Source: Candidatus Heimdallarchaeota archaeon
Lineage (GTDB): Archaea > Asgardarchaeota > Wukongarchaeia > Wukongarchaeales > JBHIFL01
Direction: 5' to 3'
Assembly: GCA_046761065.1 (NCBI GenBank)
Contig: JBHIFL010000016.1
Location: 1 to 60,361 of the forward strand
Length of the DNA: 60,361 nt
Of this stretch, positions 47,540 through 59,634 are shown one piece after another. Made by a program: the position numbers and the translations under genes. How positions within the stretch are numbered: position 1 is the first letter of the stretch; each line of letters begins with the position of its first letter. Under the pieces are notes generated by a model. That model worked only from the letters and a program-made list of their open reading frames with translations. It searched no databases and was not told the origin of the DNA.

Positions 47540-48694
47540 ATGAGAGATCTTGGATCAGGAAAAACCATAGAATCAGATGTGACGCTTCCACGAGAGTTTT
47601 GGCTCCGAAACCTCTATCTCAGACACTATGACACTATTCGATTGCTTAAAGAGAACATCACCGCAATGATTGGGTTAGCAGTCATTGCAAGTGTCATCCT
47701 TATTGCTATTTTTGCACCTTTCATAGCCACTCAGCATCCAACATCTGACGGAGGGTGGCCAATAGACTTACTGGATAAGTTCGGTGATCCAAACCCACTT
47801 TTCCTCGTAGCGGTGACGGGGGGTATTGTTTTCGGAATTCTCTTTATTATAGTAACAAACCGTTACGGAACAAAACCAAAAGAGCTAGTTCCGCGATTAA
47901 TAGTTATAGCACTGGTTCTCCTGTTTCTTACAGCCACAGGACTGGTCATTATCACGTTATACCAAGCCAGAATCACCCATACACGTCTATTAGGGACAGA
48001 CCTCTTCGGAAGAGATATTTTCAGCCGCCTTGTGTACGGATCACGTGTTTCCATTAAAGTCGGACTCATTTCCGTGGGATTCGCGCTTCTTTTAGGAATT
48101 CCCATGGGCGTCTTCGCAGCCTACTATGGAGGGAAAACAGATCTCGTTGTCAGTAGAGTGGTCGACTTGCTTTTTTCTTTTCCTGGAATTATACTAGCGA
48201 TTTTACTTTTGGCAGCCTTGGAAGGAGGGGTCACAGTATGGCACTTCCATCTGTTTGAAGATAGACTCACTCAAGCTATGATGGCTATAGGAATCATCAT
48301 TACGCCAAATTACGCGCGACTTATAAGGTCATCTGCTTTATCGGTCAAAGAGCAAGAATATATCGCCGCCGCTGAGGTGACAGGCGCGGGTGATATTGAC
48401 ATTATAATCCACCATATTTTACCTAATTGCCTATCACCAATCATTGTCCAAGTCACGATGTCTCTGGCCACCGCCATCCTCGCGGAGGCAAGTCTGAGCT
48501 TCCTAGGACTTGGAGTTCAACCTCCCACGCCCACATGGGGCTATATGATGAACTATGGGCTCAATTATCTACGCATTAGTCCTTGGATGTGCCTATTCTC
48601 CGGGTTAGCCATTACAATTACCGTATTAGGCTTCAATATGTTTGGGGACGGGTTAAGAGACGCCATAGATCCCCGTCTTAAAAGAGAGAGATAA
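47540..48694 (+). CDS. dppC: Peptide ABC transporter permease with extra TM hairpin
   Basis: LGTDLFGRD, EYIAAA...GA, HILPN, EASLSFLGLG, GDGLRDAIDPR. Confidence 0.92.
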   Translation: MRDLGSGKTIESDVTLPREFWLRNLYLRHYDTIRLLKENITAMIGLAVIASVILIAIFAPFIATQHPTSDGGWPIDLLDKFGDPNPLFLVAVTGGIVFGILFIIVTNRYGTKPKELVPRLIVIALVLLFLTATGLVIITLYQARITHTRLLGTDLFGRDIFSRLVYGSRVSIKVGLISVGFALLLGIPMGVFAAYYGGKTDLVVSRVVDLLFSFPGIILAILLLAALEGGVTVWHFHLFEDRLTQAMMAIGIIITPNYARLIRSSALSVKEQEYIAAAEVTGAGDIDIIIHHILPNCLSPIIVQVTMSLATAILAEASLSFLGLGVQPPTPTWGYMMNYGLNYLRISPWMCLFSGLAITITVLGFNMFGDGLRDAIDPRLKRER

Positions 48695-48699
48695 TAAAG

Positions 48700-49677
48700 A
48701 TGACTAAACCACTTCTAAAAGTTCAAGATCTTCGGACCTCGTTCTATCTGAGAGAAGGTGAGTTGAAGGCGGTTGATAGGGTCAATTTTAGTATAGATCC
48801 AGGGGAAATCCTTGGACTTGTGGGGGAGTCAGGTTGTGGAAAAAGTGTGACTGCTTTATCAATTTTGAGATTAATTCCCGATCCTCCTGGAAGAATTGTC
48901 GGTGGCAAGATTTTCTTCAAAGGCGACAATTTGCTTGAAAAAACGGAAAAGGAAATGCGAGCTATTCGAGGTAATCAAATCTCAATGATTTTTCAAGATC
49001 CAACCAGTTCTCTCAATCCCGTCTTTCAGGTGGGCAACCAAGTTGACGAGGTTCTCGAAATTCACCAAGCGCAAACGTTCTCTGAAGAAGAAATATTTGT
49101 AAAGACCGTGGAAATGCTCCAATTGGTCGGAATCCCTCAGGCCGAAAGCAGAAGGGGTGAGTACCCCCACGAATTTAGCGGTGGTATGCAACAACGAGTA
49201 ATGACTGCTATGGCTCTGGCGTGTGAAGGAGATCTGTTAATTGCAGATGAGCCCACTACTGCACTCGATGTGACGATTCAAGCACAGATCATTGACCTTA
49301 TGTTAAAACTGCGAAAGGAATTAGGACTAGCCATCTTACTTATCACCCATAATATGGGCCTAATCGCTGAAATGTGTGATAAGGTCGCTGTAATGTACGC
49401 AGGAAGCATAGTAGAAACAGCTCAAATTCTGGATATCTTTGACAGCCCGCAACATCCTTATACTAAGGCGCTTTTGAATTGCCTTCCAAGATTAGACGTG
49501 GATTTAAACCGTTTAGAAATAATTAAAGGGCGAGTGCCGAACCCCATTGATTTACCGAAAGCTTGTAAATTTGCTCCCCGATGTTCCCATGCAATGGATG
49601 TCTGTAGGCGAGAAATCCCTACCCAGATGCAGGTAAGCCCGGACCACACAGTAAGTTGCTTTCTATACTCAAAGTAA
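48700..49677 (+). CDS. dppD: Peptide ABC transporter ATP-binding subunit
   Basis: GESGCGKS, FSGGMQQR, ADEPTTALD, C-terminal Cys cluster. Confidence 0.93.
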   Translation: MTKPLLKVQDLRTSFYLREGELKAVDRVNFSIDPGEILGLVGESGCGKSVTALSILRLIPDPPGRIVGGKIFFKGDNLLEKTEKEMRAIRGNQISMIFQDPTSSLNPVFQVGNQVDEVLEIHQAQTFSEEEIFVKTVEMLQLVGIPQAESRRGEYPHEFSGGMQQRVMTAMALACEGDLLIADEPTTALDVTIQAQIIDLMLKLRKELGLAILLITHNMGLIAEMCDKVAVMYAGSIVETAQILDIFDSPQHPYTKALLNCLPRLDVDLNRLEIIKGRVPNPIDLPKACKFAPRCSHAMDVCRREIPTQMQVSPDHTVSCFLYSK

Positions 49678-49706
49678 GTGGTATAAGAAAGAATGGAGAA
49701 CGTTCG

Positions 49707-50678
49707 ATGACGGAAATTCTCTTAGACGTAAGAAATCTCACAAAACATTTTGAATTGGGTAAAGGGCTCTTTGCCTTCTTAGACAAGCGAAAAGTTCATG
49801 CAATTGATAATATCACCTTTACTGTCAATCGAGGAACAACTCTTGGGTTGGTAGGCGAGTCGGGGTGTGGGAAAACCACAACCGGCAAATGCATTCTACG
49901 TCTGATCGAACCAACTTCTGGAGAGATTTCTTTTGATGGGATTGAGTTGATAGGGCTGAAAAAGAAGGATCTAATGCATGTAAGACGTCGAATGCAGCTT
50001 ATCTTTCAAAACCCATTTTCTTCTCTTGATCCACGTATGCAGGTGAAAGACATCATCAGTGAACCACTTCGAATTCATCGCATGGGAACCACTCGCGAAA
50101 GAACTAAAAGAGTTCAGGAGCTGCTGGAACTCGTCGAACTCTCCCCAGATCATGCAAATAGATACCCCCATGAGTTTAGTGGCGGGCAAAAGCAACGAAT
50201 TGCCATAGCCCGGGCGTTAGCTCTTAACCCTACCCTGATAATTGCTGATGAACCGGTTTCCGCACTTGATGTTTCTATTCAAGCGCAAATCCTCAATTTA
50301 ATGAACGATTTACAAAAAGAATTTGGGTTAACCTACCTTTTCATTGCTCATGACATCAGTGTGATCAAATATATGAGCGATATGATTGCAGTCATGTATT
50401 TAGGCCAAATAGTTGAAATGGGAGAACGTATCAAATTATTGGGCAATCCCCAACACCCTTATACCAAGGCTCTCCTCTCTGCTATTCCAATTCCGAATCC
50501 TAGACACAAGAAAGACCGTATCATTCTTAGAGGGGATGTTCCTAACCCAATTCATCCTCCTTCTGGCTGTCGCTTCCACCCTCGTTGCCCGATGGCTGAA
50601 GAGAAGTGTGCGTGTAAAAAGCCTAGAAGATTCGAATTAGAAAAAAACCATTTTGTGAGTTGCTTTCTACACTACTAA
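49707..50678 (+). CDS. dppF: Peptide ABC transporter ATP-binding subunit
   Basis: GESGCGKT, FSGGQKQR, ADEPVSALD, PSGCRFHPRC. Confidence 0.93.
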   Translation: MTEILLDVRNLTKHFELGKGLFAFLDKRKVHAIDNITFTVNRGTTLGLVGESGCGKTTTGKCILRLIEPTSGEISFDGIELIGLKKKDLMHVRRRMQLIFQNPFSSLDPRMQVKDIISEPLRIHRMGTTRERTKRVQELLELVELSPDHANRYPHEFSGGQKQRIAIARALALNPTLIIADEPVSALDVSIQAQILNLMNDLQKEFGLTYLFIAHDISVIKYMSDMIAVMYLGQIVEMGERIKLLGNPQHPYTKALLSAIPIPNPRHKKDRIILRGDVPNPIHPPSGCRFHPRCPMAEEKCACKKPRRFELEKNHFVSCFLHY

Positions 50679-50989
50679 TAAGAGCTTCTAGAAAGGTAAA
50701 AGACTCTGTTCGTCCATTATATCAATTAGAAGAGGTGGGATGGATTTCGTGGGATAATAACTGACCGCCACATCACATACTTACAGACCAAATCAAAGAA
50801 TTGGGGAGAAAAAATATAGTTCTGGAACTACAGTTGACTACGATAGATAAGACTTCTCCAAATACTGAACTTGATCCAATTCTCCTTTCCTTTTGAGTAG
50901 GTTATTGAGTTCTCTCTGAGGACTAGATGGGGATGTGCGAGGAATACCTTCCTAAATAGCTAGCTCAGTCCTGCTATATTTGGTGGAGC

Positions 50990-51012
50990 AAAAATAAAAA
51001 AGGGAAAGGGGG
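50990..51012 (-). terminator. Oligo-U terminator after dppA
   Basis: CCCTTTCCCTTTTTTATTTTT on the minus strand about 40 nt after the stop. Confidence 0.45.
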
Positions 51013-51048
51013 ATTGAGGAAGCTAGATCACTGAAAAGTACCAGATTG

Positions 51049-52731
51049 CTACCCTTCTTCGATGACTATTTCTTCCATCCAGTCGCCATGCGCGTTGAAC
51101 AGGTCGACATAGATGTTCTTGACCTTTTTGTTGTTCGCAAGCCAAGTCATTTCCCATGTATAAGGATAAACTGGAAGATCTCTCATGAGGTTGATCTGAA
51201 TTTGTCGGTATAGTTCATAGCGAGCTTCAGTATCCACTGTTACAGCTGCTTGGTCTATTAGTGCATCCGTTTCGGAGTTATTGTATTTGGCAAAATTCAG
51301 ACCATATGGCTCACCGGGTTTTACCGAATGGAAAATTGTAGTCAAAATAACAATAGACTCAGGGGGTCGAGCGCCTAAGGGGAGCCAGCCGACACAATAA
51401 TCGGCTTTTATGACCATCCGTTCATACCATGCACTCGTTTCTTCCAACACGATCTCGATCCGGATGCCAGCTTTGGCCCACTGCTCTTTATACACCGGTG
51501 CGAGGATATCAAGTGGCGGAAGGGTCACAGTATGGAAAATCAGATCGATACCATCCGGATATCCTGCCTCGGCTAAAAGTTTCTTGGATTTCTCGATATC
51601 ATAGGGATACAAGTACTCTGGTGGGAAGTCTTCCTCCTTGTAAATGGAACCAGCGTAACCTGGGTTCAGGAACCCTACGGCTGGGGTATCAACAAGAAGA
51701 GCGGGGATGGTTGTTTCCTTTTCTGTTGCATGAGCTATAGCTCGCCTAACTCTCACATCACTTAGTGGTTTGCGTCCATCAGGAGCCTCCCACTCGAAGT
51801 TGAAAGAGATTCCACGATTCCCTAAGCCGACACGGGAGGTAATTTCTAAGTCGGGATTGGCTGCTGTTTCATCCCAAAGTTCTTTAAGGGACATTGGGGA
51901 GGCAATATCTATGTCTCCCGCTTCCAACGCCGTGTACCGAACATTCTCGTCCTCGTAAGGGATGTAAACGATCTTATCTAGCCAAGGTTCTTTACCATAG
52001 TAGTCCTCATTTTTCACGATGACAAATTCTTCATTCTCGGTCCAATGATCGAACTTGAAAGGACCACTCCCTATGGGCCACTTGAAATACTCACCTTCAA
52101 TCCCGGCCCCATAGTCTTCGATTGCTTCCTTGTGAACGATTGCACCATTCCGATAGGGTGCCAAAGCCCAAAGCAGTCCGACATCGACTTCTTTCATGTG
52201 GATAACGACTGTGTAATCGTCTGTTGCTTCAACATAGTCCACGTTTTTGTATAACATTCCATAGATGACATCGCCGGGTGCGAGATCATGGAGCCCCATG
52301 TTTCGCTCTATTGTAAAGACCACATCATGAGCTGTGACTTTGCCATAGTCTTTACCTTCATGAGGAGTCCCGGGGATGCCAGGATGCCATTTCGCGTCTG
52401 TTCTGAGCTCGAATTTGATGGTTTTGCCATCAGGGGACATGAGCCCATTTTCGATAGTTGGCACTTCCTTAGCAAGATCACCGATCATGTTGAATGTTCC
52501 GGGCTCGAATCCGATTAGGTAGCTGTAAATATTGGATAGAATCGCATGATCAGCTGTCCAGGTGAAGAGGGCAGGATCCATGAAGGTTGGTTCGTGGTCA
52601 TGTCCTATACGAAGGACACGCTCGACTTTCTCTTGTCCGATGCAGCCCGAAAAGGGCATTACAATAAAGAAACCGACTATTGCTATTCCTAGGGCCTTTC
52701 TGCTTAAGGTTTTCCTGGTTTTAGTGCTCAT
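51049..52731 (-). CDS. dppA: Peptide ABC transporter substrate-binding lipoprotein (family 5)
   Basis: Lipobox-like FSGCIG, DLAK, TAHDVVFT, PIGSGPFKF, DVRVRRAIAHA, KLLAEAGY; ATG at 52731. Confidence 0.9.
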   Translation of the reverse strand: MSTKTRKTLSRKALGIAIVGFFIVMPFSGCIGQEKVERVLRIGHDHEPTFMDPALFTWTADHAILSNIYSYLIGFEPGTFNMIGDLAKEVPTIENGLMSPDGKTIKFELRTDAKWHPGIPGTPHEGKDYGKVTAHDVVFTIERNMGLHDLAPGDVIYGMLYKNVDYVEATDDYTVVIHMKEVDVGLLWALAPYRNGAIVHKEAIEDYGAGIEGEYFKWPIGSGPFKFDHWTENEEFVIVKNEDYYGKEPWLDKIVYIPYEDENVRYTALEAGDIDIASPMSLKELWDETAANPDLEITSRVGLGNRGISFNFEWEAPDGRKPLSDVRVRRAIAHATEKETTIPALLVDTPAVGFLNPGYAGSIYKEEDFPPEYLYPYDIEKSKKLLAEAGYPDGIDLIFHTVTLPPLDILAPVYKEQWAKAGIRIEIVLEETSAWYERMVIKADYCVGWLPLGARPPESIVILTTIFHSVKPGEPYGLNFAKYNNSETDALIDQAAVTVDTEARYELYRQIQINLMRDLPVYPYTWEMTWLANNKKVKNIYVDLFNAHGDWMEEIVIEEG

Positions 52732-53212
52732 TGTTATCACTCCACCGTTTTTATATTTGGTCAATATTAACAAATATACCCCTTAATATATATATCGCCA
52801 AAGATTGGGAAAAGCTAACATAAGTTTTTAGCATCCAAAAGTCAAGTCAATATATCATTTGTGAGATTGCTTTTGTATGTATTTTCAAGCCCTGCTTCAA
52901 TTTAAAGCACCTTTCATTTTCATTAGAAAATTGTGAAAATAGAAGGATTATGACCAAAATAATAAATATAATTAAATTATCCAATCCCTTGATTTATTTT
53001 GAGACGAAATTCAAAATGAACACATTTCTGTCGCTGTGAATATGGTTAGATATTATCTGTGTCATATAAGATTCAAAAGAGAGTTATTTTCACATTATTT
53101 GCTTGGAGAAGTTATTATTCAAAGCTGATAAGGTTTTTCTCACCTGTCCCCAGTTAGCGAATAGAATAAGCCAGAATTCATCTATAGTTAAGTGATTGTT
53201 AACCTCAGACCC

Positions 53213-53422
53213 ATGAAAATTTCCTTTTCCAAGATCTTTATCAATCCTGATGTGAAAATTAATGTAGTTGGAGGCAATTGGAAAATCTTTTCTACTATGA
53301 CTGGGAAAATTGTAATAGGGGGGACGCTCGTCCTTCGAGAGGAAGAGGCGAGTTCTGAACTTGAAGGGTTCAACGAGCGACCTACCCAATCACATGAAGT
53401 GGGGGACAGGTTTGGGAAATGA
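53213..53422 (+). CDS. Small hypothetical beta-rich protein, first gene of the AAA-Lon operon
   Basis: ATG-started ORF, 12 nt before the next ORF. Confidence 0.45.
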   Translation: MKISFSKIFINPDVKINVVGGNWKIFSTMTGKIVIGGTLVLREEEASSELEGFNERPTQSHEVGDRFGK

Positions 53423-53434
53423 TGAGCTCATTAA

Positions 53435-53641
53435 ATGAAAGCAGCGACAGACGCGCATTCGACAAAAATAAGATCGGAGAATGATTGTATGGCTCAAAGA
53501 GTGACTTATAAAGCATCTAAAAACATAGCTACAAATCCCTTTTCTAGAAAAAAACTCAACAGAGGCAGACTAACCCGACAGGAATATTGGGGATCCTATA
53601 GATTCTTTAGACCTTATAGAATTAAGGAGAAGGCGGGATGA
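53435..53641 (+). CDS. Small basic hypothetical protein
   Basis: Arg/Lys-rich; ATGA overlap with the next gene. Confidence 0.45.
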   Translation: MKAATDAHSTKIRSENDCMAQRVTYKASKNIATNPFSRKKLNRGRLTRQEYWGSYRFFRPYRIKEKAG

Positions 53642-54567
53642 AGGGAAAAAAGATTATCCAATTAAGTGGCATCATTCTTCTTGTCGTGTGCTCGTTGCTT
53701 TTTGTCATCCGACCAGTGGCGGCGGAGCCCTTTGAAACATTCAATGTCGAAGTGTCGGGCCAAATCGATGATGGAATAAAATTCATTATTGAAGGCTATC
53801 AAATCCAATTTGCGGTGGCTGTTAATTCATCATCTCGTTACGAGTCTTACTCGTCTCAATCAAATAACATCACAGCAGTAACAATTTGGGCGCGAGAACC
53901 GGGGAGCTATATCATCACTCTCACTTATATGGTCAGTGGTCCTGCCAATTTGACAATAATTCATCGACACCAGGGAGGAGATGGGATGGGGATTGGTTTA
54001 AGTGATATAGAGCTTGCCAATTTCCAACGAATGGGAATGGGAGTTCACCTTGAATATAAAGCAGTTGTGAACTTCACTGCGACTGGCGAACCGACTACCG
54101 ACAGCAATGAGCCAGATCCCACAGCTATTGTTGAAAAGACGGCGAGTCTGATCAGTTTGTTGCCGATTCATCAATATGTTTTAATGGTTTTTTTCCTGAT
54201 ACCATTTCCAATGGGCCTTGTGGCATATAGAATGACTGTACCCGATAAAAAAGTAAGAAATTTGCCCTACGAAAATGTGAAATATCGGCTTTACGGGTCC
54301 TACCTTCGATGGTTATTCTTTCTGAACCTTTCTACACCTATAATTCTCATAGTACAAGGTTTGTTTACTGGAGAATTTATCCTCGGCTTTGTTGTATTTC
54401 AAGTAGTCATCTTCGGAACCAGTGTTTTAATGCGGCGAAAAGCCCGGAATATCGACTTAGACTATGAAGAACGCATGTTAATGAAAGGATATCCACCCCC
54501 AGAAGAAAAAGATATTGATTTGGGGAAAACAGAAGAAGGCGACAGACACGGAACGGAGGAATCATAA
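53638..54567 (+). CDS. Membrane protein: signal peptide, extracellular beta domain, 3 C-terminal TMs, acidic tail
   Basis: MKGKK..VAA signal; N-x-S/T sequons; three hydrophobic helices; stop 1 nt before the AAA ATG. Confidence 0.75.
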   Translation: MKGKKIIQLSGIILLVVCSLLFVIRPVAAEPFETFNVEVSGQIDDGIKFIIEGYQIQFAVAVNSSSRYESYSSQSNNITAVTIWAREPGSYIITLTYMVSGPANLTIIHRHQGGDGMGIGLSDIELANFQRMGMGVHLEYKAVVNFTATGEPTTDSNEPDPTAIVEKTASLISLLPIHQYVLMVFFLIPFPMGLVAYRMTVPDKKVRNLPYENVKYRLYGSYLRWLFFLNLSTPIILIVQGLFTGEFILGFVVFQVVIFGTSVLMRRKARNIDLDYEERMLMKGYPPPEEKDIDLGKTEEGDRHGTEES

Positions 54568-54568
54568 T

Positions 54569-57304
54569 ATGCAATTCTCATACGAGCGGGAGAAAGGCTT
54601 TGAGCCGTGGTATGTACGCCACCCACACCTAAGGAAATATTGTCATTGGTTCTTGACGGCCATTGATCCGGAGTATCGGACCTGGAAAAACGCGCAATTG
54701 AGTCGCAAACAGAAAATCGAATATCGCAAGAAGATACGACGACAACTTATCCACCGAAGATGGAATATGGTGGGGCGGGAGAAAGAATTTGACCGTCTGA
54801 TGCACGCCGCCTTCTATCATGTGTTGAAGGACAAGAAAACGTTAGAAAAAACAAAATTACCACCGGCGAAAATCTTCTTCTTTCGGGGGGACACGGGAAC
54901 AGGGAAGTCGTTGATGGCCAAGGTCATCATGAGAGAGGTTTTTGAACTCGGGCTAAGTGAGAATTTATTTGTGAGACCAATCATTGTGAAAGCCTCTGAT
55001 GTCTTCTCAAAATGGTATGGAGAATCATCCGCCAAGCTGAGTAATATATTGCAAGATGCGATGAAATCACCTGCAATTCTATTCATTGATGAATTTGATG
55101 CTTTTTCACAGAAAAAAGATGTGGACGCGTCCTCCTCAAGAGAGGATACCAAGGTCGAAAGTGCAATCTTGACCTATTTCGATGAGATCGTAGATTCTGA
55201 CTGTTCACTTCTAGTGGCTTGTGCGACAAAGAATATGGAACGTGTACGGAGCGATATTCGCCGTAGAGGGGAGATTGTAGACTTCGACGAAGGGATTACC
55301 CCAGAGATGCTTCTAGGAATCACAAAGAATACTTTAGCAAGGTTCAATATCGATTTGGATCACCGAAAGGTGTTCTTCGAACTAGAAAGAAATGCATCAG
55401 AAATCGGCGTCAATTTAACTCCCAGTGACATTGTAAGTGTAATTCAGTTGGTAACAACTCGATGGAGTATGAAAGCCCAAAAAGACCCAACAGAACAGAA
55501 ATTGGGGATTAAAGAGTTCCGGGATGTCAAGAAACATCTCCGAAGACATGTTCAAGCAGAGGTATCCGAAGAAGTCGTCAGCACGATAATGCGGGTTCGC
55601 CCTAAAACCCGCCTAGAAGACGTTGGGGGACTGTTTGGCATCAAAGAGAAAATATTCAAGATTGTAAGCTTGGCACTCGACCGAGAACTCAGCATTGCCG
55701 CTGGATACACTCCGCCCAGAGGTTTTCTCCTGTATGGTCCCCCAGGAACGGGCAAGACATTAATTGTGAAGGCGCTGTGTGGGACATTTCAAGCCCCTTT
55801 TTTCACAGTTAATGCTGCCCAATTAATGTCCAAATGGGCAGGGGAAGGTGAGAAGAATATACGGCATCTTTTTGAGATTGCGCGCCGTGAGGGGAGGGCT
55901 ATTATTTTTTTTGATGAATTTGATGCGATTGCGCGGAAACGGGGTACCTCCGTTAGTGAAGTAGGAGATAAAATTGTCAATCAAATACTAACCGAATTAG
56001 ATGGGATGACACCAAACGAGGGAGTGATCGTGTTTGCAAGCACGAATCGAATGGATATCATTGATCCGGCCGTGTTAAGTCGGTTCAAGCCATACATTGT
56101 GGAAATCCCCTATCCCCGGGATGATGCTGAACGCATCTCCATTCTCGAGAAACATTTGCAACATTTTGTCGATCTTTTAGGCCCCGAAGTTTCCCCTCAG
56201 AAAATTCTCCGCCTCTTCGGAAACCGTACAATGAGCGGACGCGATATAGATAAATTGGTAGGTGAAGCAAATCGGGTTCGAATTCAGGAATTATATGCTG
56301 GACACCGATATATTAAGCAGCTTAAGTCAGGAGAAGGATTTCAAGCAGAAATCGCGCTGGATTTATTTGAAGATGACTTACGCCGCCTTTTCTTAAATCT
56401 AAATATTGACCAAGAGGATAATTCCTTGGATCTTGATGTATCTTTTCTTGAAATACTTCTTGAAAGTTACCCATTGAGACTTTCCCACTTTGCAGAGGCC
56501 ATTGAACAAATTAAGGACAAGAAAATCGACGAATTACGCTCATATCAAGACTTTGTTCTCCCCAAAAAGCCGACAGTTGGAAAAGTTTGTGGCTTGGCTG
56601 CTGTAATGGAGGGGCAGGAGGGGATTGTTGGAGTGGTTGAATGCCATGTTAAGAAAGGTACGGGAAAAACTATTGTCACAGGGAGTGTTCGAGAAAGCAT
56701 CAAAGAAAGTATTGAAAATGTGAAGGCTTATTTAACCTGGAAGTATGGAATCAATTTTTCAACAAAAGATATATTCATGGAACTTATAACTCCCCTCGAA
56801 GGAGTAGATTCTGAAGAACATAAAACCGCAGGACCCAGCGCGGGAGTCACCTTCGCGATCGCCCTGATATCTGCGCTGTTAGGGATTCCAGTGAAGCCTG
56901 ATGTTGCAATGACTGGAAAAATCACAATCCGAGGCGAAGTTGGACCAGTAGGTGGACTGGATTTTCGAGGGAGCGGGAAACTTGTGGCAGCCCTCGAAAG
57001 TAATCTACGGATGGTAATCATCCCGCAAACCAATTATATGCGCCTCGAAAAAGATGAACTCGCCCGGATAGAAGAGAAGAAGATCTCAGTTGTGGGTGTC
57101 AGACATCTTGAAGAGATTTTCCCGATCGTGTTCGGGGCAATTGACCTTCCTGCAAAGCTGGAAGAGTACCCCTTACTCAACGAGGAGGAGACTCCTAGCT
57201 TAAAGCGGCTCATGAAGGTGTTCCAACCCAAAATCATAAGATCACAACAAACAGAAAAGCCCATCATCTCGATTGATGCTGATACTGACGCATCAACCCC
57301 TTAA
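54569..57304 (+). CDS. Tandem CDC48-type AAA+ ATPase fused to a Lon (S16) protease domain
   Basis: D1 GDTGTGKS/KWYG/ILFIDEFD; D2 GPPGTGKT/KWAG/IFFDEFD/STNR..DPAVLSRF; Lon GKVCGLA, GPSAG, AMTG.I...G.V.PVGG...GK. Confidence 0.9.
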   Translation: MQFSYEREKGFEPWYVRHPHLRKYCHWFLTAIDPEYRTWKNAQLSRKQKIEYRKKIRRQLIHRRWNMVGREKEFDRLMHAAFYHVLKDKKTLEKTKLPPAKIFFFRGDTGTGKSLMAKVIMREVFELGLSENLFVRPIIVKASDVFSKWYGESSAKLSNILQDAMKSPAILFIDEFDAFSQKKDVDASSSREDTKVESAILTYFDEIVDSDCSLLVACATKNMERVRSDIRRRGEIVDFDEGITPEMLLGITKNTLARFNIDLDHRKVFFELERNASEIGVNLTPSDIVSVIQLVTTRWSMKAQKDPTEQKLGIKEFRDVKKHLRRHVQAEVSEEVVSTIMRVRPKTRLEDVGGLFGIKEKIFKIVSLALDRELSIAAGYTPPRGFLLYGPPGTGKTLIVKALCGTFQAPFFTVNAAQLMSKWAGEGEKNIRHLFEIARREGRAIIFFDEFDAIARKRGTSVSEVGDKIVNQILTELDGMTPNEGVIVFASTNRMDIIDPAVLSRFKPYIVEIPYPRDDAERISILEKHLQHFVDLLGPEVSPQKILRLFGNRTMSGRDIDKLVGEANRVRIQELYAGHRYIKQLKSGEGFQAEIALDLFEDDLRRLFLNLNIDQEDNSLDLDVSFLEILLESYPLRLSHFAEAIEQIKDKKIDELRSYQDFVLPKKPTVGKVCGLAAVMEGQEGIVGVVECHVKKGTGKTIVTGSVRESIKESIENVKAYLTWKYGINFSTKDIFMELITPLEGVDSEEHKTAGPSAGVTFAIALISALLGIPVKPDVAMTGKITIRGEVGPVGGLDFRGSGKLVAALESNLRMVIIPQTNYMRLEKDELARIEEKKISVVGVRHLEEIFPIVFGAIDLPAKLEEYPLLNEEETPSLKRLMKVFQPKIIRSQQTEKPIISIDADTDASTP

Positions 57305-57522
57305 CCTACTCGAATTTTACTTTTACCTATGCGTATGTATGTGTTATAAGATTAAAAAAGACATAGAGTTCAGCTGCAGAACAGCTCAACTGAGCGTAAT
57401 TTACAATATATATTCCTCGTTTGAAGGAAATGGCTTAGGCATCTGGGAATCTATCAATCAAAAGGGAAAAACTTTTTTCCTCTTAATGGTTCTTGCGAGT
57501 CAAGGATATATGGCATAGAACG

Positions 57523-59214
57523 GTGACAGGATTGTTTAGCAAAGAGTATCTGAAAAAATTGAAAGAAAATGAAAGTGAATGGCAAAACACTACCCTAACA
57601 AATTATACCAATAGGTTTCCTGAAAGACAATCTGTTTTCAAAACCGCTTCAGGAATCCCCATCAAACAAATCTATACTCCCACGGATATCGAAACGCTTG
57701 ACTATGAGCGGGACCTCGGTCATCCTGGGACCTATCCCTTCACCCGCGGCCCCCATCCCACAATGTACCGAGGACGGTTGTGGACCCTACGCCAGTTCTC
57801 AGGGTATGGGTCAGCCGAAGAAACAAACCAACGATTCAAGTATCTTTTAGCGGAGGGTGAAACGGGACTCTCGACCGCATTTGATTTTCCTACCATCAAC
57901 GGTTACGATTCCGATTCCCCAAAAGCTGTTGGCGAGGTAGGGGTCTGTGGAGTAGCAATAGATACGTTGGAAGACATGGAACGCCTTTTTGAAGGAATCG
58001 CCTTAGATCGTGTGACTACTTCAATGACAATCAATATGCCTACTCCTGTTCTTTTGGCCATGTATCTGGTAGTAGGGGAAAACCAAGGAGTCCCTATGAA
58101 CCAGCTCGGTGGAACGGTTCAAAATGATGCTCTAAAAGAGTTCATCGCACAAAAATCGTTCATATTCCCACCTGATCCGGCAGTTAAGCTAGTTATAGAT
58201 GTAGTGGAGTATTGTACTAAACATGTGCCAAAATGGAATACTATAAGCATAAGTGGGTACCATATCCGCGAAGCTGGGGCCACTGCCGTTCAAGAATTGG
58301 CGTTCACTTTGGCAGATGGATTAGCTTATGTTGAATCTGCAATTACCCGTGGGTTAGATATTGAGAAATTTGCACTCCGCCTTTCTCACTTTTTTGCCGC
58401 TTATAATGATCTCTTTGAGGAAGTAGCGAAATTTCGGGCAGCCCGGCGAATGTGGGCGCGCTTTATGAAGGAACGCTTTGAAGCAAAAACGCCACGCTCG
58501 ATGTGGATGCGGTTCCATACCCAGACCTCCGGTTTTGCACTTACCGCCCAACAACCTGAAAATAATGTCGTACGAGTGACAATCCAAGCATTAGCTGCTG
58601 TGCTTGGGGGAACCCAATCGTTACATACAAACAGCATGGATGAGGCGTGGGCGCTGCCCTCGGAAAAGGCGGTCCGAATAGCCGTACGAACGCAGCAAAT
58701 TATAGCTCATGAGAGTGGGGTTACTCATACTGTCGATCCTTTAGCCGGCTCCTATTATATTGAATGGCTGACCGATCAGATAGAGGAAGAAGCGATGAAG
58801 TACATAGATCGAATTGATGAAATGGGCGGGATGGTCGAAGCCGTCAAGAAAGGCTTCCCACAACGAGAAATCGCAAAAAGCGCCTATCAGTTCCAACGCG
58901 AAATAGATGAGAAAAAACGGATTATATGTGGGGTGAATGAATATATAGATCCTGAGGAGCGCATTGAGATCCCACTTCTTCGGATTAACCCGGAAATTGA
59001 AAGGAAGCAGCTGGAACGACTCCACCTTGTGAAACAGCAACGTAATCAATTAAGTGTTGAACGTGCTCTTAATAACCTAGAGAAAGCCGCAGAGCGCGAT
59101 GAGAATGTAATGCCATATGTCATAGAAGCTGTGAAAGCTTCTTGTACTCTTGGAGAGATCATCGATACTCTCAAAACCGTCTATGGCGAGTATCAGGAGA
59201 AAAGTATTTTTTGA
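57523..59214 (+). CDS. B12-dependent acyl-CoA mutase large subunit, isobutyryl-CoA mutase-type active site
   Basis: PFTRG, WTLRQFSG, GLSTAFD, SMTIN, QNDALKEFIAQ, SISGYH, FHTQT, SLHTN. Confidence 0.9.
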   Translation: MTGLFSKEYLKKLKENESEWQNTTLTNYTNRFPERQSVFKTASGIPIKQIYTPTDIETLDYERDLGHPGTYPFTRGPHPTMYRGRLWTLRQFSGYGSAEETNQRFKYLLAEGETGLSTAFDFPTINGYDSDSPKAVGEVGVCGVAIDTLEDMERLFEGIALDRVTTSMTINMPTPVLLAMYLVVGENQGVPMNQLGGTVQNDALKEFIAQKSFIFPPDPAVKLVIDVVEYCTKHVPKWNTISISGYHIREAGATAVQELAFTLADGLAYVESAITRGLDIEKFALRLSHFFAAYNDLFEEVAKFRAARRMWARFMKERFEAKTPRSMWMRFHTQTSGFALTAQQPENNVVRVTIQALAAVLGGTQSLHTNSMDEAWALPSEKAVRIAVRTQQIIAHESGVTHTVDPLAGSYYIEWLTDQIEEEAMKYIDRIDEMGGMVEAVKKGFPQREIAKSAYQFQREIDEKKRIICGVNEYIDPEERIEIPLLRINPEIERKQLERLHLVKQQRNQLSVERALNNLEKAAERDENVMPYVIEAVKASCTLGEIIDTLKTVYGEYQEKSIF

Positions 59215-59229
59215 AAGGAGAAGACGCCA

Positions 59230-59634
59230 ATGGAAGTGGAAACCAAGAAGATTAAAGTCCTCATTGCGAAACCGGGGCTAGATGGGCATGATCGCGGGGC
59301 GAAGGTCGTTGCACGCGGTCTACGGGATGCTGGCATGGAAGTCATTTATGCGGGATTACGCCAAACACCAGAACAGATTGTTCAGGCTGCAATTCAAGAA
59401 GATGTGGATGTCATCGGGTTGAGCATTTTGTCTGGCGCCCACCTCGTACTGTTACCCAGAGTCACAGCCCTCCTCCAAGAGGAAGGTATCGAGGATATTC
59501 TTGTCATCGCAGGTGGTACAATCCCAGACGATGATTTACTGAAATTAAAAGACGCGGGCATCGAAGAAATCTTCCGTCCAGGTACCACACTCCAGGAAAT
59601 CGTAGAATACGTCCAATCACATCTTAAGAGATAG
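59230..59634 (+). CDS. Cobalamin-binding small subunit of the acyl-CoA mutase
   Basis: [28 protein letters not shown]. Confidence 0.93.

What the first reader, a model, noticed from the sequence alone, without database searches (positions are those of the whole stretch)
54569..57304. CDC48/p97-type double-ring AAA ATPase fused to a Lon protease domain
Seen: two classic-clade AAA modules with intact Walker A/B and aromatic pore loops (KWYG, KWAG), followed by a Lon proteolytic domain with GPSAG Ser. The candidate Lys is 47 residues downstream (a 4-aa insertion relative to the usual 43). There is no CDC48 N-domain and no TM insert. D1 has atypical sensor/SRH residues (CATK, IRRR). Established: LonA/LonB have a single AAA module of a different clade, and Cdc48/VAT feeds the 20S proteasome in trans. 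Inference: a self-contained 'Cdc48-Lon' unfoldase-protease, an architecture I do not know to be characterised.
Basis: partly seen in the sequence, partly recalled or inferred. Interest (0 to 1): 0.85.

Follow-up and report, generated by a model that had tools for sequence, protein, structure and literature searches.

The report
Membrane-partnered double-AAA Lon protease
This archaeal gene encodes a protein-degrading machine that joins two Cdc48-type ATP motors to a Lon protease and always sits beside (in some relatives is fused to) a small membrane protein; I found no description of this conserved family in the papers I could search.

Summary
Window 54569-57304 (+) is an intact 911-aa gene: a short helical N-region, two classic-clade AAA modules, a helical spacer and a LonB-like S16 protease domain.

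All ATPase and Ser-Lys residues are invariant in 75 distinct family members, so this is neither a chimeric join nor a dead enzyme. The family occurs in 73 of 401 sampled Bathyarchaeia-class genomes but in only 7 of 400 genomes of the window's own phylum, which is probably Asgard.

In all 25 further loci examined by script, and in all six loci where I looked by hand (some overlap), the gene is either preceded on the same strand by an unannotated multi-pass membrane-protein gene or carries that membrane module fused to its N-terminus (four genomes). In the window the partner is 53638-54567, with its stop codon 1 nt before the ATG.

The best reading is a membrane-associated, two-subunit ATP-dependent protease with FtsH-like topology, Cdc48-like motors and LonB-like chemistry. 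It exists alongside canonical LonB, PAN, Cdc48 and the proteasome in the same genome.

Seven literature searches found no description. This scan has already noted the same family at least 14 times on other DNA. Binding of the partner, hexamer formation and substrates are inferred, not shown.

The parts
53638..54567 (+). Partner gene (309 aa, P0123). It has a signal/TM helix (about aa 3-32), a predicted all-beta extracytoplasmic domain (about aa 33-148), three or more TM helices (about aa 169-266) and a conserved cytoplasmic tail.
   Evidence: No Pfam, NCBIfam-type or PADLOC family. TM segments by hydropathy. AF2 model of low confidence, pLDDT 53.9. Its 9 homologues (58-83% id) lie on the same contigs as close AAA-Lon homologues. 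The same position is occupied by a membrane protein in every locus examined.
54436..54564 (+). Cytoplasmic tail of the partner (aa 267-309, RKARNIDLDYEERMLMKGYPPPEEK...). It is the best-conserved stretch of the partner together with the loop LPYENVKYRLY..YLRWLFFLN.
   Evidence: Alignment A3. Analogous acidic tails (WYELIDEEE, FDLKPxEDE) occur in other partner types, and IYEMIDEQVYDFTPWW at the junction of the fused forms.
54555..54571 (+). Coupling junction: GGAGG (54555-54559), partner stop TAA (54565-54567), 1 nt, then ATG (54569-54571) of the AAA-AAA-Lon gene, which is in the +1 frame relative to the partner.
   Evidence: Sequence read. The same arrangement is seen in the 93%-identical relative L001.
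54569..57304 (+). AAA-AAA-Lon catalytic subunit gene (911 aa, P0002), stop codon included.
54596..54748 (+). N-terminal helical region (aa 10-60) carrying the family motif F.PW[WY]..H..LR...L....YR.W[KR]. In fused relatives it follows the last TM helix directly.
   Evidence: A1 consensus, AF2 helices 14-59, fused sequences, family representatives.
54773..55573 (+). D1 AAA module (aa 69-335). Walker A GDTGTGKS at 54887-54910, pore loop KWYG at 55010-55021, Walker B ILFIDE at 55076-55093, sensor-1 position ACATK at 55217-55231, IRRRG at 55256-55270.
   Evidence: K113, D174, E175, R232 and R233 are invariant in 75 members.
55601..56338 (+). D2 AAA module (aa 345-590). Walker A GPPGTGKT at 55736-55759, pore loop KWAG at 55832-55843, Walker B IIFFDE at 55901-55918, sensor-1 N493, Arg505.
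   Evidence: (CDC48 D2 region 184 bits; PAN 162; FtsH 160).
56339..56557 (+). Helical spacer between the D2 lid and the protease domain (aa 591-663).
   Evidence: AF2 secondary structure. The LonB profile match begins at aa 645.
56558..57133 (+). Lon (S16) proteolytic domain (aa 664-855). GPSAG at 56831-56845, Ser757 at 56837-56839, Lys804 at 56978-56980. Relative to LonB it has a 7-residue insertion before the Ser and a 4-residue insertion before the Lys.
57185..57301 (+). Disordered, poorly conserved C-terminal tail (aa 873-911). No HbYX-type ending (...DADTDASTP).
   Evidence: pLDDT below 50; sequence.

Best explanation
P0002 is the catalytic subunit of a membrane-associated, ATP-dependent serine protease of an uncharacterised family.

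By analogy with Cdc48/p97, LonB and FtsH, it most likely forms a hexamer with three stacked tiers: a D1 ring, a D2 ring and a Lon chamber. ATP hydrolysis in both rings would pull a polypeptide through aromatic pore loops into the Ser757-Lys804 chamber.

The upstream, translationally coupled membrane protein (53638-54567) would hold the N-terminal face (D1 side) of this stack at the cytoplasmic side of the membrane. That gives an FtsH-like topology, suited to extracting and degrading membrane or membrane-proximal proteins. The partner's variable ectodomain may add substrate choice or sensing.

Shown here: gene integrity, domain architecture, invariance of catalytic residues, kinship of the modules, conserved gene pairing, and fusion in some genomes.

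Inferred: the hexamer, the direction of threading, physical binding of the partner, and the substrates.
For: (1) Architecture. Two PF00004 modules plus PF05362. The AF2 model has pLDDT 76.6 with discrete D1, D2, spacer and Lon domains. Foldseek's top hits are p97/Cdc48 over about 620 columns at E 1e-31.

(2) Activity. Walker A Lys, Walker B Asp-Glu, the Arg residues, D2 sensor-1 Asn, and Lon Ser, Thr and Lys are invariant in 75 distinct members. Aromatic pore loops are present in both rings.

(3) Origin. D1 lies on the Cdc48-D1 side of a 99% SH-aLRT split. D2 groups with Cdc48-D2 (support 82), apart from FtsH+PAN. The D1 and D2 subtrees are congruent. The Lon domain is nearest to LonB: TIGR00764 at 120-125 bits against LonA at 94-96, and PDB 3k1j at 3.7e-25.

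(4) Membrane link. The window, L001, L005, L006 and L008 and 21 of 25 further loci have a same-strand membrane-protein gene with a gap of -109 to +25 nt. The other 4 loci have a roughly 115-aa 3-TM module fused in frame to the N-terminus. The short/fused TM module resembles the TM part of another partner type (hhalign E 3.5e-4 over 80 columns). Each partner type maps to exactly one clade of the catalytic-subunit tree. The rest of the neighbourhood is not conserved.

(5) The most conserved parts of the window's partner face the cytoplasm.

(6) It is an addition, not a replacement. The same genome has a canonical TM-inserted LonB, proteasome subunits, PAN, two Cdc48 genes and a Vps4-like ATPase.
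Against: Sequence homology between the window's own partner (A3) and the fused/short TM module (A2) is not significant (hhalign E 0.2 and 0.39). For this lineage the membrane link therefore rests on position, topology and co-phylogeny, not on demonstrable homology.

The D1 sensor-1 Asn is Lys in this lineage, which might weaken D1 hydrolysis.

D1 sits on a very long branch (1.55), so its placement beside Cdc48-D1 could be a long-branch artefact. The tree is a quick LG+G4 search.

Gene adjacency would equally fit a partner that is a substrate or a regulator.
Confidence: 0.68

Rival explanations
1. A soluble cytosolic Cdc48-Lon protease. The upstream membrane protein is not an anchor but a dedicated substrate or regulator. 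For example, it could be a transmembrane sensor whose cytoplasmic tail is degraded on a signal, as in regulated proteolysis of anti-sigma factors.
For: P0002 has no TM segment. The partner has a long, conserved and partly acidic cytoplasmic tail that could serve as a degron. Partner ectodomains vary between clades, as expected for sensors. Binding was not demonstrated here.
Against: In four genomes the TM module is covalently fused to the N-terminus. That fixes the enzyme at the membrane and is hard to reconcile with a pure substrate. The shortest partners (124 aa) are only three TM helices plus a 9-residue tail, with no sensor domain.
Confidence: 0.2
2. An ATP-driven unfoldase or disaggregase whose Lon domain is structural or regulatory rather than proteolytic, as in the Lon-like domains of RadA/Sms, ComM or Mg-chelatase ChlI.
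For: Weak sub-threshold hits of the C-terminal domain to ChlI, RadA and YifB profiles. Insertions next to both catalytic residues, with low pLDDT at 744-756.
Against: Ser757, Lys804, Thr782 and the G-P-S-x-G and G-x-G-K contexts are invariant in 75 members. The best matches are genuine proteases (LonB, LonA) by 20 or more orders of magnitude over RadA.
Confidence: 0.05
3. A component of an anti-phage defence system, either IetAS-like (AAA ATPase plus protease) or BrxL-like (Lon-related).
For: Partial PADLOC hits: IetA 162 bits on D2, BrxL 31 bits on the Lon domain. NCBIfam IteA 140 bits against a cut-off of 510.
Against: The hits cover only generic AAA or Lon cores and lie far below family cut-offs. 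No IetS, BREX or other defence genes are adjacent. The neighbours are an oligopeptide ABC transporter, acyl-CoA mutase subunits, a DNA glycosylase, and in relatives ribosomal proteins, ilvD and radical-SAM enzymes. The gene is single-copy and vertically coherent in many small genomes.
Confidence: 0.04
4. An assembly chimera or pseudogene with no biological reality.
For: The source genome is a 234-contig bin with 8.2% estimated contamination.
Against: Full-length homologues of the same architecture exist in more than 80 independent genomes and metagenomes. They include closed single-contig genomes and 13 members at 90% identity or more from different samples. The frame is open and the catalytic residues are conserved.
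Confidence: 0.01

Closest known systems
Archaeal Cdc48/VAT (p97 family), which feeds the 20S proteasome
   Same: Tandem classic-clade AAA modules with aromatic pore loops. D1 and D2 fall on the Cdc48-D1 and Cdc48-D2 sides of the tree. It is the best structural match and the best NCBIfam hit.
   Different: No double-psi-barrel/beta-clam N-domain and no HbYX tail. The score is far below the family cut-off (248 against 803). The protease is covalently attached (S16) instead of being a separate 20S particle. There is a family-specific 60-aa helical N-region and a membrane partner.
Archaeal LonB (e.g. T. onnurineus 3K1J, A. fulgidus 1Z0x; TIGR00764)
   Same: The S16 protease domain with a Ser-Lys dyad is closest to LonB. 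Like LonB it is a membrane-associated ATP-dependent protease of archaea. Archaea lack FtsH (stated in PMC4864567).
   Different: LonB has one AAA+ module of the Lon clade, with two TM helices inserted between Walker A and B; the window genome's own LonB shows this. Here there are two classic-clade modules and no internal TM. The anchor is a separate or N-terminally fused module. There are 4- and 7-residue insertions at the active site.
FtsH / mitochondrial m-AAA and i-AAA proteases
   Same: Overall topology in the fused relatives: N-terminal TM segments (with an ectodomain in many partners), then classic-clade AAA, then a C-terminal protease. The presumed role is extraction of membrane proteins.
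   Different: One AAA ring against two. An M41 zinc metalloprotease against an S16 serine protease. In the window the anchor is a separate polypeptide. The D2 module is not nested within FtsH in the tree.
ClpA/ClpC-ClpP and ClpB-type double-ring AAA+ machines
   Same: Two stacked ATPase rings that deliver substrate to a self-compartmentalised serine protease.
   Different: The Clp rings belong to other AAA+ clades. ClpP is a separate subunit with an unrelated S14 fold and seven-fold symmetry, and the Clp systems are not membrane-anchored. This comparison rests on established knowledge and was not tested here.
Lon-like-Ms of Methanobrevibacter smithii and LonC
   Same: Non-canonical Lon relatives that lack TM helices.
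   Different: Lon-like-Ms has a single ATPase domain and Tyr at the catalytic Ser position (PMC4864567). LonC lacks ATP-powered unfolding (title of PMC3391209). Neither has tandem classic AAA modules.

Membership tests
CDC48/VAT/p97 (TIGR01243) | Two tandem classic-clade AAA modules (D1, D2) | tested here: met
   Two PF00004 stretches. Tree placement. Foldseek top hits are p97/Cdc48.
CDC48/VAT/p97 (TIGR01243) | N-terminal double-psi barrel plus beta-clam domain (PF02359/PF02933) | tested here: not met
   No such Pfam hit. Residues 1-68 are a short helical region.
CDC48/VAT/p97 (TIGR01243) | Whole-protein score reaches the curated cut-off | tested here: not met
   248.1 bits against a cut-off of 802.65.
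CDC48/VAT/p97 (TIGR01243) | C-terminal HbYX-type proteasome-docking motif (archaeal Cdc48; from my own knowledge) | tested here: not met
   The C-terminus reads ...IDADTDASTP and is disordered and unconserved.
LonB (TIGR00764, MEROPS S16) | S16 proteolytic domain with a catalytic Ser-Lys dyad | tested here: met
   PF05362 at 7.7e-28. S757 and K804 invariant in 75 members. Best PDB matches are LonB.
LonB (TIGR00764, MEROPS S16) | Single Lon-clade AAA+ module with two TM helices between Walker A and B | tested here: not met
   Two classic-clade modules and no TM in P0002. The genome's canonical LonB has the TM insert.
LonB (TIGR00764, MEROPS S16) | Whole-protein score reaches the curated cut-off | tested here: not met
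   125.1 bits against 516.6.
LonA (TIGR00763) | N-terminal LAN domain plus one AAA+ module; curated cut-off | tested here: not met
   95.8 bits against 608. Only the protease domain matches.
FtsH (TIGR01241) | N-terminal TM anchor, one classic AAA module, M41 zinc protease | tested here: not met
   176 bits against 600, confined to D2. No M41 domain. The anchor is a separate gene here.
Membrane-partnered AAA-AAA-Lon family (unnamed; defined here by alignment A1) | N-terminal W-W/R-rich helical motif, D1, D2, helical spacer, and a Lon domain with Ser-to-Lys spacing of 47-49 | tested here: met
Membrane-partnered AAA-AAA-Lon family (unnamed; defined here by alignment A1) | Adjacent same-strand multi-pass membrane-protein gene, or an N-terminally fused TM module | tested here: met
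   Window 53638-54567, with the stop 1 nt before the ATG. Also 25 of 25 further loci.
Membrane-partnered AAA-AAA-Lon family (unnamed; defined here by alignment A1) | Partner homologous in sequence to the TM module of the fused forms | tested here: inconclusive
   Window partner family against the fused/short module: hhalign E 0.2 and 0.39. Another partner type against the fused/short module: E 3.5e-4.
IetAS / BREX-BrxL defence systems | Family-level match plus the cognate partner genes (IetS subtilase; brx genes) nearby | tested here: not met
   Only partial generic hits. The neighbours are transport and metabolic genes.

The most novel reading that the evidence does not exclude
The pair is a prokaryotic, ubiquitin-independent counterpart of ERAD-type extraction. 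A Cdc48-derived double motor docked on a dedicated membrane subunit would pull membrane proteins out of the bilayer and destroy them in its own Lon chamber. The clade-specific ectodomains of the partner would act as extracytoplasmic sensors that gate which proteins are removed. This would be a third class of energy-dependent protease in archaea beside the proteasome and LonB, present in a probable Asgard genome. A further untested possibility concerns the split forms: the catalytic gene is always in the +1 frame, and a 26-nt overlap is conserved in one clade, so occasional frameshifting might also yield a fused polypeptide.
Probability: 0.25. Interest if true: 0.85.

Novelty: new variant of a known kind. 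Interest (0 to 1): 0.68.

Why it matters
Reviews of archaeal proteolysis list two energy-dependent systems: the 20S proteasome with PAN/Cdc48, and membrane-bound LonB. This family would be a third.

It combines parts otherwise known only separately: a Cdc48-type double motor, a LonB-type chamber and an FtsH-like membrane topology. It therefore bears on how AAA proteases were assembled by domain fusion, and on how archaea that lack FtsH handle membrane-protein quality control.

It offers a compact single-polypeptide model for how two rings cooperate with a covalently attached protease. The existence of both split and fused forms gives a natural experiment on subunit docking.

Its presence in a probable Asgard genome beside ordinary Cdc48 is of interest for the prehistory of Cdc48-dependent extraction pathways.

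Tried and rejected
- Complex prediction of P0002 residues 1-340 (alignment A1) with partner residues 160-309 (alignment A3) gave no verdict: runs scored 0.51, 0.00 and 0.00. It counts neither for nor against binding.
- hhalign of the window partner (single sequence and family A3) against the fused/short TM module A2 was not significant. A3 against the FDLKP-type partners A5 gave only a 22-column hint in the ectodomain (E 0.012).
- The search for related loci on genome contigs with A1 chose generic AAA patterns and returned ordinary Cdc48/FtsH loci. These served only as an outgroup source for the tree.
- The AF2 model of the partner was too poor (pLDDT 53.9) to justify a fold search.
- The listing of cluster members on seven other window proteins gave no organism names. 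The Asgard assignment rests on submitters' names for AAA-Lon proteins at 90% identity or more and for an 81%-identical partner, and on genome-size clues.
- Seven literature searches found no description. The Cdc48-family phylogeny paper does not mention Lon. Lon-like-Ms (PMC4864567) is a different, single-ATPase family.
- The small ORFs upstream of the partner (53192-53641) were looked at. They are not called as genes in the 93% relative, so I do not count them as parts.
- The sigma-70 promoter and terminator scan was uninformative for an archaeon.
Full report
**1. The observation**

The window has one long open frame at 54515-57304. The likely start is the ATG at 54569, which has a GGAGG nine bases upstream and gives 911 residues.

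Pfam finds two AAA (PF00004) stretches and a Lon_C domain at residues 663-852. NCBIfam's best hits are:
- CDC48 (248 bits, cut-off 803), PAN and FtsH for the ATPase part;
- LonB (125 bits, cut-off 517), ahead of LonA (96 bits), for residues 645-855.

The polypeptide has no TM segment and no Cdc48 N-domain.

**2. Not an artefact, and not dead**

A search of 5.8 billion proteins returns a 93%-identical protein, two at 77-78%, and then about fifty full-length proteins (about 900-920 aa) at 35-39% identity. All carry AAA plus Lon_C. Where named, they are called only 'AAA family ATPase' or 'hypothetical protein', from Bathyarchaeia, Hecatellales and Verstraetearchaeota.

In GTDB species genomes the family is found in 73 of 401 sampled genomes of the class that holds the Bathyarchaeia relative L005. 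It is found in only 7 of 400 genomes (three genera) of the window's own phylum.

A profile of the N-region plus D1, run against 1.84 billion representatives, finds roughly 25 clusters at 50% identity that match over the full profile. Occasional variants include an intein in D2, an extra C-terminal BSP peptidase domain, and one member with no detectable Lon_C.

Across 75 distinct members the following are invariant:
- the Walker A Lys and Walker B Asp-Glu of both modules;
- R232 and R233 in D1;
- N493 and R505 in D2;
- Ser757, Thr782 and Lys804 in the Lon domain.

The unusual Ser-to-Lys spacing is a family trait (47 in 64 members, 49 in 10, 48 in 1). It stems from a 4-residue insertion (DFRG) before the Lys relative to solved LonB structures, and there is also a 7-residue insertion before the Ser.

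**3. Where the parts come from**

I built a tree of 102 AAA modules: family D1 and D2, Cdc48 D1 and D2, FtsH, PAN and Vps4. It was a quick IQ-TREE search under LG+G4.
- Family D1 is monophyletic (support 100), on a long stem, on the Cdc48-D1 side of a 99% split.
- Family D2 is monophyletic (99) and groups with Cdc48-D2 (82), away from FtsH+PAN (95).
- The D1 and D2 subtrees are congruent.

This fits descent from a Cdc48-like tandem ATPase rather than a fresh duplication. The long D1 branch keeps this provisional.

The AF2 model (pLDDT 76.6) shows a helical N-region (aa 14-59), D1, D2, a helical spacer (aa 590-663), the Lon domain and a disordered tail. Foldseek's best matches over about 620 columns are p97/Cdc48 (E 1e-31). 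The Lon domain's best solved relatives are T. onnurineus and A. fulgidus LonB.

**4. The surroundings change the reading**

The gene immediately upstream (53638-54567) ends in TAA one base before the ATG of the AAA-AAA-Lon gene. It encodes a 309-aa protein of no known family, with this layout:
- a signal/TM helix;
- a predicted all-beta ectodomain (low-confidence model);
- three or more TM helices;
- a 43-residue cytoplasmic tail.

Its nine homologues (58-83% identical) lie on the same contigs as the closest AAA-Lon homologues. Its best-conserved stretches are the cytoplasmic loop and tail.

The same arrangement recurs everywhere I looked. In L001, L005, L006 and L008 an unannotated membrane-protein gene touches or overlaps the start of the AAA-Lon gene, while the rest of the neighbourhood differs. 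Of 25 further loci taken from GTDB genomes:
- 21 have such a gene, with a gap of -109 to +25 nt;
- 4 have a 3-TM module of about 115 aa fused in frame to the N-terminus (1010-1012 aa).

These four come from small genomes in the window's own phylum, one of them a closed 1.4-Mb genome. The junction reads ...KLKHIYEMIDEQVYDFTPWW... and runs straight into the family's N-terminal motif.

The short separate partners end in WYELIDEEE, and their catalytic subunits begin ...EEFKPWW. So the split lies exactly at the fused forms' junction.

The partner types, each of which corresponds to exactly one clade of the catalytic-subunit tree, are:
- fused;
- short 3-TM (one relative, L008, adds an ectodomain to this same module and acidic tail);
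- ectodomain plus 2 TM, without a tail;
- ectodomain plus TM helices, ending FDLKPxEDE;
- the window's type.

The fused/short module resembles the TM part of the FDLKP-type partners (hhalign E 3.5e-4). For the window's own partner, however, profile comparison is not significant (E 0.2-0.39). Its equivalence therefore rests on position, topology and co-phylogeny.

**5. Mechanism**

I read the pair as a two-subunit, membrane-associated ATP-dependent protease. The N-terminal face of a presumed hexamer (D1 ring) is held at the membrane by the partner. Substrates are threaded by the aromatic pore loops through D1 and D2 into the Lon chamber.

The steps shown and the steps inferred are separated under Best explanation. 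The complex-prediction job gave no verdict and is not used as evidence.

The main rival is that the enzyme is soluble and the membrane protein is its substrate or a regulator. The covalent fusions and the minimal 124-aa partners argue against that, but it is not excluded for this lineage.

A defence role is unlikely: the PADLOC hits are partial and generic, and no defence neighbours are present.

The same genome also encodes a canonical LonB with its TM insert, proteasome subunits, PAN, two Cdc48 genes and a Vps4-like ATPase. The enzyme is therefore an addition to the standard set.

**6. Organism**

Proteins 90% or more identical to P0002 are named by submitters as Candidatus Hodarchaeota or Heimdallarchaeota (one fragment as Aenigmarchaeota). 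An 81%-identical partner is also named Heimdallarchaeota.

The window's genome bin is 4.4 Mb in 234 contigs, 91% complete, with 8.2% contamination. Its GTDB class holds only three species. I take 'Asgard archaeon' as probable, not established.

The family's rarity in that phylum, its abundance in Bathyarchaeia, and the long separate stem of the window's clade suggest patchy inheritance or transfer. I did not test a direction.

**7. Comparison and novelty**

The protein works like a hybrid of Cdc48/VAT (motors), LonB (chemistry) and FtsH (topology), and it fails the membership tests of each (see the table). Lon-like-Ms (PMC4864567) and LonC are different families.

Seven full-text searches found no description. 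That library lacks most subscription journals, so 'undescribed' is provisional.

This scan has already noted the same family at least 14 times in at least 13 other genomes, with the same reading, including fused forms in an Odinarchaeon and an SPFH-partnered branch. I reached the pairing and fusion results independently before reading those notes.

I rate it a new variant of a known kind (AAA+ proteases), of clear specialist interest, with the biochemistry entirely open.

Noticed in passing
G000 contig C47:3845-7552 (+), outside the window: A 1235-aa Cdc48-like ORF whose first AAA module is interrupted by about 500 residues. The D2-profile matches at 177-258 and again at 762-871. This may be an intein in D1.
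   Followed up: no
window 57493-59634: Directly downstream lie a methylmalonyl-CoA-mutase-family large subunit (573 aa) and a B12-binding small subunit (134 aa). Another first-reader note suggests isobutyryl-CoA mutase specificity. The same mutase follows the AAA-Lon gene in the 93% relative L001.
   Followed up: no
L102, L110, L111, L112 (partner / AAA-Lon junctions): In the short-partner clade the two genes overlap by exactly 26 nt in four different genomes, and the catalytic gene is in the +1 frame, as it is in the window. This is compatible with simple translational coupling. It would also allow a frameshifted fused product.
   Followed up: partly
P0170, P0172, P0060 (family representatives): Family variants. 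P0170 carries a LAGLIDADG intein inside D2. P0172 has an additional C-terminal BSP-type peptidase domain after the Lon domain. P0060 (858 aa) has no detectable Lon_C.
   Followed up: partly
P0064, P0177, P0178, P0179 (N-termini): The most divergent family branches replace the W-W/R helical N-motif with long charged, coiled-coil-like N-terminal extensions.
   Followed up: no
window 47540-52773: An oligopeptide/dipeptide ABC transporter set: a permease and two ATPases on the + strand, and a family-5 solute-binding protein on the - strand. It lies upstream of the partner gene, and the binding-protein gene keeps this position in L001.
   Followed up: no
window 52790-53630: An AT-rich non-coding stretch of about 850 nt lies between the solute-binding-protein gene and the partner gene. 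It contains only short unconserved ORFs, including a 99-aa ORF on the - strand at 53090-53389 with no family.
   Followed up: partly
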